Source: an uncultured Anaerolineales bacterium (GTDB lineage: Bacteria; Chloroflexota; Anaerolineae; UBA2200). From it: DNA of 64,000 nt. Of this stretch, positions 55,987-63,441 are shown piece by piece. How positions within the stretch are numbered: the first letter of the stretch is position 1; each line of letters begins with the position of its first letter. Location of the stretch: the NCBI GenBank assembly GCA_964478725.1, contig CAYZKS010000001.1, positions 2,903-66,902 on the forward strand, given 5' to 3'. A program made the position numbers and the translations under genes. The notes beneath the pieces are model-generated. The model was not told where the DNA came from, did not search any database, and saw only the letters and a list, made by a program, of their open reading frames with translations.

Positions 55987-57361
55987 GCTGAGTCCTGTAG
56001 AGCCGTGCCAAATCTGCCACGGCGCGGGCTACCTGCGACGCGACGTGCCGCCAGGCCATCCAGATTTTGGCCGTCCCGTGCCGTGTCAGTGCAAGCTGCT
56101 GGAGCGTCAACTGCGACGTCAGCAGGACCTGCGCCAAACCAGCAACTTGGGACAGCTTGAGCGCATGACGTTCGATACCTTCTTGGCCGCCGGACATGGT
56201 TTGAATCCCGAGTTGCAGGCCAACCTGAAAAAGGCCTTTGACAAAGCGCGAGAGTATGCGCAACAGCCAAGTGGCTGGCTGGTGCTAAAAGGCGGATATG
56301 GCTGCGGCAAGACTCACCTGGCAGCTGCCATCGCCAACCATCAGGTGGAGCGGAGCAAGCCGGTGCTTTTTGTGGTGGTGCCGGACCTGTTAGACTACCT
56401 GCGCACCACCTATGCCCCCAACAGTCCAGTCAGCTTTGATCAACGCTTCGACGCGGTGCGCACCGCCCCTTTGCTGATCCTGGATGATCTGGGTTCACAG
56501 AGCAGCACTCCTTGGGCCCAGGAGAAGCTGTATCAGATCTTGAATTACCGCTACAATGCACAGTTGCCAACGGTGATCACCACCAATTCCGAAATCGAGG
56601 ACCTGGACCCCAGAATTCACTCCCGCATGGTCGAGCTGGACTGGTCCGCGATGGTGCACATCCTGGCCCCCGACTATCGCGAGGGCGCCGATGCAAGGCA
56701 ATCAGAGCTGAGCAGTCTGGGCTTGCACTCTGATCAGACGTTTGAGAGCTTTGATCTGCGCGACGATGAAACCGACCTCGCGCCACCCCAGCGGGCGAAC
56801 CTCAGGCGCTCACTCAACATGGCCAAGGCATTTGCTGAAGATCCTCAAGGCTGGCTGGTGATCACTGGCGACTATGGATGCGGAAAGACCCACCTGGCAG
56901 CGGCCATTGCCAACTGCCGCTTCTACCAGAACTACCCTGTGCTGTTTGTGGTCGTCCCCGACTTACTGGACCACCTGCGGGCAACCTTCAGCCCGCAGAG
57001 CACAGTTGGCTTTGATCGCCGTTTTGAAGAGATCCGCAACAGCCCGCTGCTGGTTCTGGATGATCTGGGGACACACAGCGCAACGCCTTGGGCCCAAGAG
57101 AAGCTGTTCCAGATCTTTGACCATCGCTACAACGCGCGCCTGCCCACCGTCATTACCATGACGCGAGATGTCGAAATCGACCCGCGATTGAAGACGCGCA
57201 TTCTGGATACCCGTTTGTGCCAGGTCTGGGAGATCACGGCGCCAAGCTATCGAGGTCGGTTGGACGTCCGTGAGTCAGGGCGGACACAAAGAGGCCATGG
57301 CTCGCGTCCCTTGGCGTCGGGCTCAGAGCCACGTAGAAGGGGCATAGGTGCCCCTGGTTGA
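55916..57361 (+). CDS. DnaC/DnaI-like helicase loader (IstB-type AAA+) with an internally duplicated AAA+ module and an N-terminal Cys-rich region
   Basis: Two complete copies of Walker A ([16 protein letters not shown] / [16 protein letters not shown]), Walker B (LLILDDLG / LLVLDDLG), sensor-1 (TVITTN / TVITMT) and the box ([19 protein letters not shown] / [19 protein letters not shown]). N-terminal CQICHGAGY...CQC. ATG at 55916 with a GAAGG RBS; overlaps the DnaD-like gene by 71 nt. Confidence 0.7.
   Translation: [481 protein letters not shown]
56225..57260 (+). repeat. Intragenic tandem duplication (two copies of about 0.5 kb, roughly 75% nucleotide identity) encoding the duplicated AAA+ module of the DnaI-like protein
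   Basis: Copy 1 is about 56225..56700, copy 2 about 56815..57260; long collinear runs of identical codons are seen by eye (e.g. GGCTGCGGCAAGACTCACCTGGCAGC vs GGATGCGGAAAGACCCACCTGGCAGC). Confidence 0.7.
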
Positions 57362-61752: not shown

Positions 61753-63441
61753 ATGAGACTCAACCGATGGAACATGGTTATGCTAGCTGCCCTGACTTTG
61801 ACCGCATTGGCCTTGGCAGCATGGCTGGGATGGAGTACGTACAACTATCGTCCTGCTTATCACCAGCCACAGGAGATGGGTCCAGCCCTCCCCGTCCTGA
61901 GCGGTAGGGTGGCGCTAGTTCTGATAGATGGCTTGCCGTACCACCTCGCGACACAGATGCCGTGTCTGCAGCCGCTGATCGGGCGTGCGGCAACTGCCAA
62001 ATCGCTCAGTGTGCTACCCACGATGTCACAAGCGACGTGGACTGCGCTCCTGTCGGGAGCGCGGCCGGAAATCAGCGGGGCGGCATTGTTCAACGCCGAG
62101 TATGACGCTCTGCAGCCCATCCAGGTGGATCATCTGTTCGCACTCGCCAAAGACGCCGGCATGAGCACTGCCATCGCAGGCCACAAGTGGTGGAAGAAGA
62201 TGATCCCGGCCCAGTTCGTCGACCGGTCACACTATGTGGCGGCATTTGATGCGGCGGGTGACCTGGAGGCGACTCAGGCAGCCATCGGCTTCTTGCATGA
62301 CCCGACAATCGATCTGCTGCTCGTTTATCTCGGTGAATACGACGAAATGAGTGACATTCACGGTCCGAGCAGCCAGATCGGTAGCGAAGCGCTACGCAAT
62401 ACCAACGAACGCGTGTGCGAGCTCCTGGCAGAGATTGACCTGGGTAGTACCGTGCTCGCCATCACCGCGGACCATGGCCAACTCCCGCAGGGTGGACATG
62501 GCGGTGACGACAAGCCGGTCCGGGAAACGTTGTTTCTGCTAGCTGGTCCGCACGTACGACCCGGGGAATACCAGAGCATCGAGCAACCGGACATCGCCCT
62601 GACGCTAGCGGCCTTGCTGGGCCTGCCTTTACCGCGTTCGGGTCAGGGCCGCATTCTGCATGGGCTTCTGGAAGCAACGCCTGCCGTGAAGATGCGCTGG
62701 CAAGCGGCGCTGGCTATTCAGAGCATGGCCCAGGCAGATGCATACCTGGAGTCAATCAAGGCAGCCAAGTTGCCAACGGCTCTGCATGACCAGGTGACCA
62801 AGCTGGAGGAGGCGTTGCAGGTCGAGAGTCTCGAAGAGGCGGAACGGTTGTCGAGCACATTGCTGGACCAGACAGCACTGTTCCTGACGCGTGAGCGGGC
62901 CGCCAAGATCAGCCGCAGTCGCCTGACGCGTGTGCCCATAGCCCTTGGTGGGCTGGCCTTGATTGTGCTGCTGTTTCTGGACAACTGGCGTCGTGGTCAC
63001 AGGGCAGCGATGTTGCTGGCATTGTTGAGCGCAGTAGCCTATCAGGCATTGTGGATGGCACGCGGTCACGTATTCTCGTTGAGTACACTGAGCAGTCCGG
63101 GTAGTCCGGTGAGTCTGCTCGTGACGCTTGTCGGTGGGGCAATGGCCGTTCTCGTGCTGGGCTGGTTTCTACTGTGGCTGCCGTCCTTTCTGCGCCGAGA
63201 CGGTACGAAGCCTCCGCTCTCATCCGCGCGGGCTTTCAGCACTGGGGTGGTGGGCATCCTGTTCCTGCTGGGACTGGCTGCATTCACCGTCAATGGCAGC
63301 CTCGGATCCTGGCAGCTGGTCGTGCCCAGCCTGGCCTTTGTGGTGCTGCTCGCCTGGGTGCAGGCTGCGTTGGTTGGGAGCTTGTCCCTGCTGGGGTTTG
63401 GCCTTGTGAAACTGGTACAGCGCATATTCAGAAGGAGGTAG
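61753..63441 (+). CDS. Alkaline phosphatase family protein (type I phosphodiesterase/nucleotide pyrophosphatase-like) with a C-terminal polytopic membrane domain
   Basis: N-terminal signal/anchor. Phosphodiesterase-type motifs (ALVLIDGLPY, PTMSQATW nucleophile region, TADHGQ, DEMSDIHG). About 5 C-terminal TM helices. ATG at 61753 with a GAAGGA RBS. Confidence 0.65.
   Translation: MRLNRWNMVMLAALTLTALALAAWLGWSTYNYRPAYHQPQEMGPALPVLSGRVALVLIDGLPYHLATQMPCLQPLIGRAATAKSLSVLPTMSQATWTALLSGARPEISGAALFNAEYDALQPIQVDHLFALAKDAGMSTAIAGHKWWKKMIPAQFVDRSHYVAAFDAAGDLEATQAAIGFLHDPTIDLLLVYLGEYDEMSDIHGPSSQIGSEALRNTNERVCELLAEIDLGSTVLAITADHGQLPQGGHGGDDKPVRETLFLLAGPHVRPGEYQSIEQPDIALTLAALLGLPLPRSGQGRILHGLLEATPAVKMRWQAALAIQSMAQADAYLESIKAAKLPTALHDQVTKLEEALQVESLEEAERLSSTLLDQTALFLTRERAAKISRSRLTRVPIALGGLALIVLLFLDNWRRGHRAAMLLALLSAVAYQALWMARGHVFSLSTLSSPGSPVSLLVTLVGGAMAVLVLGWFLLWLPSFLRRDGTKPPLSSARAFSTGVVGILFLLGLAAFTVNGSLGSWQLVVPSLAFVVLLAWVQAALVGSLSLLGFGLVKLVQRIFRRR

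What the first reader, a model, noticed from the sequence alone, without database searches (positions are those of the whole stretch)
57348..63441. Extracytoplasmic cluster II: membrane-anchored clan-A glycosidase, UbiA prenyltransferase, LtaS/sulfatase-like enzyme and AlkP-family phosphodiesterase with C-terminal membrane domain
Four plus-strand genes separated by 75, 145 and 78 nt follow the replication operon. They combine a polyprenyl-phosphate-utilising UbiA enzyme (DPPR-synthase-like logic) with two alkaline-phosphatase-superfamily enzymes that typically transfer or cleave phospho-head groups (glycerol-phosphate, phosphoethanolamine, nucleotide pyrophosphate), plus a GH5/GH39-like hydrolase. 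Together with cluster I (GT39 + YfhO) this suggests a lipid-linked, phosphodiester-containing cell-surface polymer (teichoic-acid- or lipoglycan-like) whose biosynthetic logic is uncharacterised in this lineage. The AlkP-family protein is unusual in being fused to a 5-helix C-terminal membrane domain.
Basis: partly seen in the sequence, partly recalled or inferred. Interest (0 to 1): 0.5.

Follow-up and report, generated by a model that had tools for sequence, protein, structure and literature searches.

The report
Four envelope genes, not one pathway
Four neighbouring genes for membrane-bound, outward-facing enzymes really exist in this Anaerolineae-type genome, but relatives show they are a loose and changeable neighbourhood, not a conserved four-gene pathway for a new cell-surface polymer.

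Summary
Four co-directional ORFs encode:
- g1: a membrane-anchored PslG-like glycoside hydrolase.
- g2: a UbiA-superfamily prenyltransferase.
- g3: a 5-TM protein with a sulfatase-fold domain and a Thr nucleophile, with the overall architecture of EptA.
- g4: an NPP-type alkaline-phosphatase-superfamily enzyme with one N-terminal and five C-terminal membrane helices.

- The closest relative (DnaB 94% identical) has g1 directly followed by g4, with no UbiA and no g3.
- Another relative has g1-g4, and two have g3-g4.
- None of 82 loci carrying the UbiA ortholog has a g3 or g4 homolog nearby.

The UbiA belongs to a very conserved Chloroflexota orthogroup. It is closest to archaeal DGGGP synthase and matches no quinone, heme O or DPPR-synthase model. 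Its neighbours vary from locus to locus.

g3 and g4 belong to large, uncharacterised families. More distant members of both sit among GT-C/GT2 glycosyltransferases, with Wzm/Wzt exporter genes also next to a g3 homolog. They therefore probably tailor or turn over a surface glycan from outside the membrane.

The C-terminal membrane fusion of g4 is not rare: all 150 listed hits of an exhaustive profile search are full-length proteins of this kind. Interest is low to moderate.

The parts
57348..59039 (+). g1: membrane-anchored clan-A glycoside hydrolase, PslG-like (GH39/GH5-like), with a C-terminal CE2_N-like beta-sandwich. The probable start is 57393. The proposed catalytic Glu residues lie in WNEPN (DNA 58032-58040) and ATEVGW (58395-58409).
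   Evidence: Pfam Cellulase 27.2 bits and CE2_N 21 bits. The best solved relative is PslG 4zn2/5bx9 at E 4e-9, with the NEP and TE(V/W)GW motifs aligned. One N-terminal TM helix with four K/R before it. Motif positions. Orthologs are 83%, 76% and 51% identical in L008, L009 and L010.
59115..59978 (+). g2: UbiA-superfamily prenyltransferase of a highly conserved Chloroflexota orthogroup. Asp-rich motifs are DFYADQDLD (59298-59324) and DIRDYPQD (59664-59687).
   Evidence: Pfam UbiA 64.9 bits. The best NCBIfam hits are DGGGP-synthase-type models at 55.6 and 51.3 bits against cut-offs of 296 and 269, with no MenA, UbiA, CyoE, ChlG or DPPR-synthase hit. The only solved relative is M. jannaschii DGGGPS 6m31, at E 9e-6 for the single sequence and 1.2e-8 for the profile. 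Orthologs are 61-72% identical and the alignment has 82% mean column identity.
60036..60131 (+). 31-codon ORF in the g2-g3 spacer that encodes only a lipoprotein-type signal peptide with a lipobox (MLKRLLAAFMLLPIVSAAAC GEDGRSHTCHA). It may be a relic of a deleted secreted-protein gene, or it may be chance.
   Evidence: Read from the sequence. Relatives carry a 625-aa lipoprotein-like gene 'X' directly upstream of g3 (L012) or of UbiA (L087). No DNA similarity was detectable.
60124..61674 (+). g3: integral membrane alkaline-phosphatase-superfamily enzyme with five N-terminal TM helices and an outside sulfatase-fold domain. The probable start is 60169. Numbering from M16: metal ligand D177, nucleophile T218 (DNA 60820-60822), H344/H349, D421/H422.
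   Evidence: Pfam Sulfatase 36.5 bits. The listed residues are invariant in a 39-member alignment. AF2 model pLDDT 91.5. The best fold matches are full-length EptA 5fgn (E 2.9e-10), EptC, MCR-1 and PbgA. There is no sequence-level PDB hit even with a profile and no C/SxPxR motif. More than 3,400 homologs from several phyla.
61753..63441 (+). g4: NPP-type alkaline-phosphatase-superfamily enzyme. It has an N-terminal TM anchor, an outside catalytic domain (about residues 27-300), a helical stalk (about 310-390) and a five-helix C-terminal membrane bundle. Key residues are D59, nucleophile S92 (DNA 62026-62028), D197/D201, D240/H241 and H249. Conserved outward-loop motifs are RG..(F/Y)SLST (63061-63090) and NGxLG (63292-).
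56078..57361 (+). Upstream flank, not part of the cluster: a dnaC/IstB-like helicase-loader gene with two tandem AAA+ modules. It is the last gene of the dnaB-dnaD-dnaC-like block that precedes g1 in all close relatives.
   Evidence: Called gene and Pfam families in L001. Translation. Conserved order in L008 and L009.
63444..64000 (+). Downstream flank: the start of a UxaE-like (PF16257) gene that runs off the window. It is followed in the same genome by a GNAT acetyltransferase, DUF6391 and holA.
   Evidence: L001 is the same genome and extends further. UxaE scores 478.6 bits. The gene is present in L008 and absent in L009 and L012.

Best explanation
The region is a genuine run of four genes for membrane-embedded or outward-facing enzymes, but it is not one conserved biosynthetic module. 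It is a changeable patch of envelope genes lodged between two conserved replication-gene blocks: dnaB-dnaD-dnaC-like upstream, and acetyltransferase-DUF6391-holA downstream.

Shown:
- g4 is the fixed member of the patch, always just upstream of the acetyltransferase-DUF6391-holA block.
- g1 precedes it in the window and in two relatives.
- g3 precedes it in the window and in two other relatives.
- The UbiA gene is present here only. Everywhere else it sits in unrelated neighbourhoods.

Inferred mechanism:
- g1 is a retaining PslG-like endoglycanase tethered to the outer face of the cytoplasmic membrane, and it trims a surface or exopolysaccharide chain.
- g3 works like EptA or LtaS. Thr218 attacks a membrane phospholipid head group, with a metal held by D177/D421/H422, and passes the phospho-alcohol to a surface acceptor.
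- g4 uses a two-metal NPP-type site with Ser92. The site is held on a helical stalk above a five-helix bundle whose conserved outward loops present a lipid-linked phosphodiester or pyrophosphate substrate, which g4 cleaves or transfers.
- The likely substrate of all three is a glycan built by polyprenyl-phosphate-dependent GT-C enzymes.
- The UbiA enzyme is a catalytically intact, DGGGP-synthase-like prenyltransferase with its own housekeeping lipid role. That role is still unknown and is unrelated to its neighbours here.
For: Synteny:
- L008 (DnaB 94%, g1 83%, g4 64% identical) reads dnaC-g1-g4-UxaE-AcT-DUF6391-holA, with no UbiA and no g3.
- L009 reads dnaC-g1-g4-AcT-DUF6391-holA.
- L012 and L013 read X-g3-g4-AcT....
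- Of 82 UbiA-ortholog loci, none has g3 or g4 and one has g1, 4.6 kb away with other genes between.
- UbiA neighbours are heterogeneous: the commonest neighbour cluster, an ABC transporter, occurs in only 12 of 82 loci.
- g2 and g3 show no compositional anomaly, so the arrangement reflects rearrangement rather than recent foreign DNA.

Active sites and folds. Outside topology.

Envelope-glycan context of more distant family members:
- g4 with PMT_2 and GT2 in L010.
- g4 with GT87, GT2 and LPG_synthase_TM in L011.
- g4 with a Wzy_C gene about 4 kb away in L014.
- g3 with Wzm/Wzt, PMT and UDP-glucose dehydrogenase in L097.
- g3 with three PMT_2 genes, GT87, GT2 and an ALG3-like gene in L099.

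In L010 the g1 homolog lies directly upstream of a PMT_2 GT-C gene.
Against: - The four genes are co-directional with short spacers, and the scan predicts no intrinsic terminator on the + strand within them. Co-transcription in this organism is therefore not excluded.
- g3-g4 adjacency recurs in three of five related lineages and g1-g4 in three, so some functional coupling among these three genes is possible.
- L087, a relative with a 73% identical g1, has the UbiA gene only 4.6 kb downstream of g1. The UbiA may therefore have lived in this general region for some time.
- The substrates of g3, g4 and the UbiA are entirely inferred. No experiment or characterised close homolog exists.
- The sampled relatives are metagenome contigs, often short.
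Confidence: 0.6

Rival explanations
1. All four genes form one pathway: the UbiA enzyme makes a polyprenyl-phosphate-linked primer (DPPR-synthase-like), g3 and g4 add or cleave phospho-head groups, and g1 trims the product. The result would be a teichoic-acid-like or lipoglycan-like phosphodiester polymer.
For: - The genes are co-directional with spacers of 75, 145 and 78 nt, and no + strand terminator is predicted.
- All products are membrane-bound.
- The g3 and g4 families occur in surface-glycan clusters elsewhere.
- The UbiA is not a quinone or heme O enzyme.
Against: - The UbiA ortholog never neighbours g3 or g4 in 82 other loci.
- The closest relative lacks both UbiA and g3 at this locus, yet keeps g1-g4.
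- No DPPR-synthase model is hit; the closest relative is DGGGP synthase.
- The same co-directional run also contains replication genes on both sides, so strand and spacing carry little weight.
Confidence: 0.1
2. Nutrient scavenging. g1 degrades external polysaccharide for food, and g3 and g4 are surface phosphatases or phosphodiesterases that free phosphate or head groups from environmental organophosphates. There would be no role in building the cell's own envelope.
For: - g1 scores as GH5 'cellulase'.
- The g4 core is closest to NPP, ENPP and PafA hydrolases.
- A second Phosphodiest gene next to a solute-binding protein lies 7-8 kb downstream of g4 in L008 and L009.
- That Anaerolineae are typically fermentative polysaccharide users is stated from general knowledge.
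Against: - g1's best solved relative is the exopolysaccharide-processing PslG, not a cellulase.
- g3 and g4 carry multi-helix membrane domains with conserved outward-facing loop motifs, which suit lipid-linked substrates and are unnecessary for soluble substrates.
- No transporter is adjacent in the window.
- Distant family members sit among glycosyltransferases rather than uptake systems.
Confidence: 0.15
3. A lineage-specific pairing. In this genome only, the UbiA and g3 have become a functional pair: g3 decorates or uses the prenylated lipid made by the UbiA. They would have been inserted together between g1 and g4.
For: g2 and g3 are adjacent here and both are missing between g1 and g4 in the nearest relative.
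Against: - In L012 and L013, g3 occurs next to g4 without any UbiA.
- The g2-g3 spacer is the longest of the three, at 145-190 nt, and contains a possible gene relic.
- UbiA-g3 adjacency is seen in none of 82 UbiA loci and in none of three g3-family loci.
Confidence: 0.05

Closest known systems
PslG (Pseudomonas aeruginosa Psl exopolysaccharide hydrolase, GH39; PDB 4zn2/5bx9)
   Same: g1 shares the N-terminal membrane anchor and the outside (beta/alpha)8 clan-A domain. The NEP acid/base and TE.GW nucleophile motifs align, at E 4e-9.
   Different: The alignment covers residues 113-436 of the 563-aa ORF. g1 has an extra C-terminal CE2_N-like beta-sandwich. Pfam scores it as GH5-like, not GH39, although its L010 ortholog hits both weakly. 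It is not located in a Psl-type polysaccharide operon.
Archaeal digeranylgeranylglyceryl phosphate synthase (DGGGPS, UbiA superfamily; PDB 6m31)
   Same: It is the only solved relative of g2 (E 1.2e-8 with the profile) and the source of the best NCBIfam models. Both Asp-rich motifs are present, and length and helix count are similar.
   Different: Scores are 5-6 times below the equivalog cut-offs: 55.6 against 296. The first motif reads L-D-x3-D-x-D-x-D rather than the canonical N-D-x2-D-x3-D (the canonical form is from my own knowledge). No GGGPS or G1P dehydrogenase gene was found among the window ORFs annotated or in the UbiA-neighbour clusters annotated. The acceptor substrate is unknown.
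EptA/MCR-1 phosphoethanolamine transferases and LtaS lipoteichoic acid synthase
   Same: g3 has the same overall plan: five N-terminal TM helices, an outside sulfatase-fold domain, a Thr nucleophile and a DH metal pair. The best fold match is full-length EptA 5fgn, followed by MCR-1 (9nww), with PbgA lower in the list.
   Different: Identity is only 10-12% and TM-score about 0.40. There is no sequence-level match, even with a profile. No Pfam EptA_B_N or NCBIfam hit was found. The first metal ligand is Asp, where EptA and LtaS have Glu (from my own knowledge). Chloroflexota are described as lacking an outer membrane (abstract listed), and that they lack lipid A is my own knowledge, so the acceptor must be different.
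Nucleotide pyrophosphatase/phosphodiesterases (Xanthomonas NPP, ENPP4/6/7)
Eukaryotic GPI ethanolamine-phosphate transferases (PIG-N/Mcd4 family)
   Same: The domain order is the same: N-terminal anchor, lumenal or outside alkaline-phosphatase-superfamily domain, then a C-terminal multi-helix membrane domain. This is recalled from knowledge and was not tested by alignment.
   Different: No Pfam PigN hit was found. g4 has only five C-terminal helices. No sequence or fold match was retrieved.

Membership tests
UbiA prenyltransferase superfamily (PF01040) | Pfam model above the gathering score | tested here: met
   64.9 bits against 34.2, covering profile positions 3-243 of 250.
UbiA prenyltransferase superfamily (PF01040) | Two Asp-rich Mg-diphosphate motifs | tested here: met
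   DFYADQDLD and DIRDYPQD are present and invariant across the orthogroup. The spacing of the first motif is atypical.
DPPR synthase (decaprenyl-phosphate phosphoribosyltransferase, Rv3806c type) | Sequence membership: a curated model or closest solved relative | tested here: not met
   No NCBIfam hit to any DPPR-synthase model at E<=0.1. The profile search of the PDB returns only DGGGPS.
MenA / UbiA (4-HB) / heme O synthase / chlorophyll synthase | Curated NCBIfam equivalog match | tested here: not met
   None of these models appears at E<=0.1. The generic TIGR01475 ubiA_other model scores 29.6 bits against a cut-off of 180.8.
DGGGP synthase | Equivalog score; partner genes GGGPS and G1P dehydrogenase | tested here: not met
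   Scores of 55.6 and 51.3 bits against cut-offs of 296 and 269. No GGGPS or G1PDH gene was found among the window ORFs annotated or the UbiA-neighbour clusters annotated. The resemblance is the closest available, but membership is not shown.
Formylglycine-dependent (aryl)sulfatases | C/S-x-P-x-R motif at the nucleophile position | tested here: not met
   Neither g3 nor g4 has such a motif. g3 has Q-T-I-P-S-L with an invariant Thr.
LtaS / EptA-type membrane phosphotransferases | Five N-terminal TM helices plus an outside sulfatase-fold domain | tested here: met
   The AF2 model of g3 has five helices before residue 151, followed by the alpha/beta domain. The best fold match is full-length EptA.
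LtaS / EptA-type membrane phosphotransferases | Thr nucleophile with Asp/His metal ligands | tested here: met
   D177, T218, D421 and H422 are invariant in 39 sequences. The assignment rests on motif position, not on an experiment.
LtaS / EptA-type membrane phosphotransferases | Sequence-level family membership (Pfam EptA_B_N, NCBIfam LtaS/EptA models) | tested here: not met
   No such hits were found. The profile search against the PDB gives nothing below E 0.1.
LtaS / EptA-type membrane phosphotransferases | Phospho-alcohol transfer from a phospholipid donor | not testable with these tools
   Needs enzymology.
NPP / Phosphodiest (PF01663) | Pfam model above the gathering score and an NPP-like fold | tested here: met
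NPP / Phosphodiest (PF01663) | Nucleophile and bimetal ligands conserved | tested here: met
   D59, S92, D197, D240 and H241 align to Xac NPP D54, T90, D210, D257 and H258 (the NPP numbering is from my own knowledge). The +4 His is Asp here and His in distant members. H249 in GGHGG is near-invariant.
GPI-EtNP transferase (PIG-N) family | PigN C-terminal membrane domain (Pfam) | tested here: not met
   No Pfam hit in the C-terminal 170 residues at E<=0.1.
GH39 / PslG-like clan-A hydrolase | Acid/base NEP and nucleophile Glu aligned to a solved member | tested here: met
   Alignment to PslG 4zn2. Positions.
Conserved gene cluster (one functional module) | The same genes adjacent in relatives | tested here: not met
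   UbiA: 0 of 82 loci with g3 or g4. The four-gene order is seen only in contigs of this same genome. g1-g4 and g3-g4 adjacency are each partly conserved.
Conserved gene cluster (one functional module) | Co-transcription | tested here: inconclusive
   No + strand terminator-like site and no sigma-70-like promoter lies within 57348-63441. The scan is not validated for Chloroflexota.

The most novel reading that the evidence does not exclude
The g4 family has an NPP-type catalytic domain on a helical stalk above a five-helix membrane bundle. At least 1,146 50%-identity clusters match at E<=1e-30. The few members that carry a source name are labelled only 'alkaline phosphatase family protein', in Chloroflexota and Bacillota MAGs. 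The family could be an unrecognised class of membrane-embedded phosphodiester transferases or hydrolases that act on lipid-linked intermediates of single-membrane cell envelopes. That would make it a functional counterpart of LtaS, EptA or PIG-N built on a different branch of the alkaline phosphatase superfamily. Its fixed position between replication genes in this Anaerolineae clade might link envelope remodelling to the cell cycle.
Probability: 0.25. Interest if true: 0.5.

Novelty: new member of a known kind. Interest (0 to 1): 0.25.

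Why it matters
Chloroflexota envelopes are poorly understood, and it would matter if a compact four-gene pathway for a new phosphodiester-linked surface polymer existed here. 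The evidence says it does not. The genes are independent members of known enzyme superfamilies that happen to be neighbours in this genome.

Three smaller leads remain useful:
- There are two large uncharacterised families of outward-facing alkaline-phosphatase-superfamily membrane enzymes. g3 has the overall architecture of EptA. g4 has an NPP-type core with a C-terminal membrane bundle.
- More distant members of both families lie among GT-C/GT2 surface-glycan genes (with Wzm/Wzt exporter genes next to one g3 homolog), which makes them reasonable candidates for the enzymes that decorate Chloroflexota surface glycans.
- A strikingly conserved DGGGP-synthase-like prenyltransferase orthogroup has an unknown lipid product.

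Tried and rejected
- Four-gene synteny. I looked for the order in relatives using contigs that encode UbiA, g3 and g4 homologs, a GTDB genome scan anchored on g4 (the first attempt with the wide alignment failed) and an 80-locus metagenome scan anchored on UbiA. The order occurs only in contigs of the same genome.
- Recent horizontal insertion of g2-g3. Rejected: GC, GC3 and tetranucleotide composition are native.
- UbiA function from neighbours. Clustering neighbours across 82 loci found no dominant partner.
- UbiA subfamily placement. Curated models and solved structures gave only weak DGGGPS similarity. A proper phylogeny with reference sequences could not be built, because no reference set is available offline.
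- The upstream ORF 'X' in L012. I tested whether it is a UbiA or g1 homolog; it is neither. It matches a 625-aa secreted protein in L087.
- The signal-peptide mini-ORF in the g2-g3 spacer. I tested whether it is a relic of X by DNA or translated similarity; nothing significant was found.
- PMT_2 orthology. The PMT_2 next to g1 in L010 is only 26% identical, in the C-terminal part, to the window's 'cluster I' PMT_2.
- Structure library.
- Literature. Searches for the UbiA orthogroup, Chloroflexota envelope polymers and bacterial PIG-N-like enzymes found nothing specific.

Full report
**What is there**

The window carries four + strand ORFs at 57348-59039, 59115-59978, 60124-61674 and 61684/61753-63441.

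Pfam confirms every domain call above its gathering score:

| Gene | Pfam family | Score (bits) | Cut-off |
|---|---|---|---|
| g1 | Cellulase/GH5 | 27.2 | 23.5 |
| g2 | UbiA | 64.9 | 34.2 |
| g3 | Sulfatase | 36.5 | 25 |
| g4 | Phosphodiest | 41.5 | 23 |
| g4 | PglZ | 30.8 | 25 |

NCBIfam has no family for g1, g3 or g4. For g2 it gives only far-sub-threshold DGGGP-synthase-type hits.

The window's composition is uniform at about 58-62% GC, and the window contains no tRNA gene. The rest of the window is ordinary chromosome: Mfd, PlsX, FabF, ThrRS, MnmA, plus a PMT_2 and YfhO pair at 25.6-30.4 kb. GTDB hits of the g4 family are Anaerolineales, Anaerolineae and Chloroflexia MAGs, so the organism is an Anaerolineae-type Chloroflexota.

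**The four proteins**

*g1.* It has one N-terminal TM helix preceded by four basic residues, then a 514-residue outside domain. Its best solved relative is the exopolysaccharide hydrolase PslG (E 4e-9). The WNEPN acid/base motif and the TEVGW nucleophile motif both align.

*g2.* It belongs to a remarkably conserved orthogroup:
- Homologs are 61-72% identical, and the alignment has 82% mean column identity.
- The motifs GGFSLDFYAD(R/Q)DLD and FAMFGGRGMIDIRD(F/Y)PQD are invariant.
- Sources name the homologs only generically, as Chloroflexota or Dehalococcoidia proteins.
- A profile of the orthogroup hits only M. jannaschii DGGGP synthase among all solved structures (E 1.2e-8).
- No MenA, UbiA, CyoE, ChlG or DPPR-synthase model is hit.

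*g3.* The AF2 model is confident (pLDDT 91.5) and shows five N-terminal helices plus a sulfatase-fold domain.
- Invariant residues are D177, N214, Y215, T218, S221, H344, H349, D421 and H422.
- There is no C/SxPxR motif.
- The best fold matches are full-length EptA, then EptC and MCR-1, with PbgA lower in the list, at only 10-12% identity.
- No sequence-level PDB match exists, even with a profile.
- The family is large, with more than 3,400 hits at about 40% identity. Named members come from Zixibacteria, Planctomycetota, Anaerolineae and other Chloroflexi.

*g4.* The AF2 model is also confident (pLDDT 91.3). It shows an N-terminal helix, an alpha/beta core, a long helical stalk and five C-terminal helices. 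The hydrophobicity and charge pattern puts the core outside the membrane.
- The profile alignment to Xac NPP maps D59, the nucleophile S92, D197, D240 and H241 onto the NPP ligands.
- The GGHGG His249 is near-invariant.
- The most conserved positions in the membrane part are R437, G438 and S444, in the RG..(F/Y)SLST motif; R390 lies at the stalk-membrane junction. In the close subfamily N514, in an NGxLG motif, is also conserved. The predicted topology puts both motifs in outward-facing loops.

**Is it one module?**

Contigs of the same genome (L001-L003) show that the run continues downstream: UxaE-like, GNAT acetyltransferase, DUF6391, holA. It is preceded by BFN-dnaB-dnaD-dnaC-like. The four genes therefore sit inside a longer co-directional string that includes replication genes on both sides. 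Strand and spacing alone say little.

Gene order at this locus in relatives:

| Locus | Identity to the window | Order |
|---|---|---|
| L008 | DnaB 94%, g1 83%, g4 64% | dnaC-g1-g4-UxaE-AcT-DUF6391-holA |
| L009 | g4 48% | dnaC-g1-g4-AcT-DUF6391-holA |
| L012, L013 | g3 ~55%, g4 ~54% | X-g3-g4-AcT-... |
| L087 | g1 73% | g1, EamA, a 314-aa gene, X, UbiA, NadC/NadA fusion |

- In L008, UbiA and g3 are simply absent from the 90-nt g1-g4 spacer.
- X is an unrelated 625-aa secreted protein.
- In L087 the UbiA lies 4.6 kb downstream of g1, and no g3 or g4 is present.

Anchoring on the UbiA gives a clear answer. Two long contigs (L004, L006) and 80 metagenome loci carry orthologs. Of these 82 loci, 42 have at least 1.5 kb downstream and 47 have at least 1.5 kb upstream. 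None carries a g3 or g4 homolog, and only L087 carries g1.

The UbiA's neighbours are heterogeneous. The commonest partner, an ABC transporter, occurs in 12 of 82 loci; others are DUF6125, URO-D, TetR and thiolase genes.

g2 and g3 are compositionally native. The differences between relatives therefore reflect local rearrangement, not recent import of foreign DNA.

A 31-codon ORF in the g2-g3 spacer encodes only a lipoprotein signal peptide. It may be a scar of such rearrangement, but this could not be demonstrated.

**What the parts probably do**

More distant members of both alkaline-phosphatase-superfamily families lie among surface-glycan genes:
- g4 homologs sit with PMT_2 and GT2 (L010), with GT87, GT2 and LPG_synthase_TM (L011), and about 4 kb from a Wzy_C-TPR protein (L014).
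- g3 homologs sit in a Wzm/Wzt ABC-exporter glycan cluster with a PMT-type GT-C and UDP-glucose dehydrogenase (L097), and among three PMT_2 genes, GT87, GT2 and an ALG3-like gene (L099).
- In L010 the g1 homolog lies directly upstream of a PMT_2 GT-C.

Together with the outside topology and intact active sites, this supports an inferred role for g1, g3 and g4: trimming or decorating a polyprenyl-phosphate-dependent surface glycan from the outer face of the membrane.
- g3 would act like EptA or LtaS, transferring a phospho-alcohol from a phospholipid.
- g4 would act as a membrane-embedded NPP-type phosphodiesterase or transferase on a lipid-linked substrate.

None of this is shown experimentally.

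The UbiA is catalytically intact but unclassified. Its closest known relative is DGGGP synthase. Membership of that family is not met, and no partner genes were seen.

**How unusual is g4?**

The word-indexed search found only 36 relatives. An exhaustive profile search gives a very different picture:
- 25,369 representatives match at E<=1e-3, and 1,146 match at E<=1e-30.
- All 150 listed hits match from the N-terminus of the profile; most are 530-630 aa and cover it through the C-terminal membrane region.

The few members with source names are 'alkaline phosphatase family protein' from Chloroflexota and Bacillota MAGs. No curated NCBIfam model reaches its cut-off for g4-family or g3-family members. 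The architecture is therefore uncharacterised but common, not a peculiarity of this locus.

**Verdict**

The domain and topology calls are right, and an envelope-glycan role is plausible for three of the four genes. The unifying four-gene, UbiA-primed phosphodiester-polymer pathway is not supported.
- The locus is best described as a variable set of ordinary-superfamily envelope genes next to replication genes.
- Interest is low to moderate. It rests mainly on the two uncharacterised membrane alkaline-phosphatase-superfamily families and on the conserved DGGGPS-like prenyltransferase.

Noticed in passing
window 60036-60131 (+), within the g2-g3 spacer: A 31-codon ORF encodes only a lipoprotein-type signal peptide with a lipobox (MLKRLLAAFMLLPIVSAAAC...) and almost no mature part. 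It ends overlapping the first ATG of g3. It may be a relic of a deleted secreted-protein gene like 'X' in L012 and L087.
   Followed up: partly
window 56078-57361 (+): The dnaC/IstB-like helicase-loader gene contains two tandem AAA+ modules with near-repeated sequence ([22 protein letters not shown]... and [22 protein letters not shown]...). In L009 the homologous region is called as two genes of 328 and 140 aa.
   Followed up: no
window 53432-64000 and L001, L008, L009, L012: g4, and usually g1, is embedded between dnaB-dnaD-dnaC-like and GNAT acetyltransferase-DUF6391-holA in several related lineages. This is an odd, conserved linkage of envelope enzymes with replication genes.
   Followed up: partly
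window 49965-51812 (+): A protein of 582-615 aa has no Pfam match, an N-terminal signal or lipobox-like segment, repeated '...LHLVW...' units and C-terminal TM helices. It is conserved at the same upstream position in L008 and L009.
   Followed up: no
L097 6400-7999 and L098 6382-7996: In other lineages the g3-family gene is immediately preceded by a conserved 74-aa membrane peptide and a ~460-aa methyltransferase-like protein; the 460-aa proteins of the two loci are 55% identical. Neither partner is present in the window.
   Followed up: partly
window 59298-59324 (g2 first Asp-rich motif): The first motif of this UbiA orthogroup reads L-D-F-Y-A-D-(R/Q)-D-L-D, with Leu where UbiA enzymes usually have Asn and with a 4+4 Asp spacing. 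It is invariant in 26 orthologs.
   Followed up: no
window 63444-64000 (+), continuing in L001 14330-15841: A UxaE-like (tagaturonate epimerase family) gene starts 2 nt after g4 and runs off the window. It is present in L008 but absent from L009 and L012, so it is another variable member of this patch.
   Followed up: partly
L015 10001-11570: The g4 homolog in the Chloroflexia MAG CAVPBH010000020.1 matches in two overlapping tblastn pieces, which suggests a frameshift or pseudogene.
   Followed up: no
It lies 27 kb from the finding and shows no demonstrated link to it.
   Followed up: partly
L008 19360-21264 (-) and L009 18068-19957 (-): A second, longer Phosphodiest-family gene (about 630 aa) lies next to a solute-binding-protein gene 7-8 kb downstream of g4 in relatives. 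This is possibly a phosphate- or organophosphate-scavenging pair.
   Followed up: no
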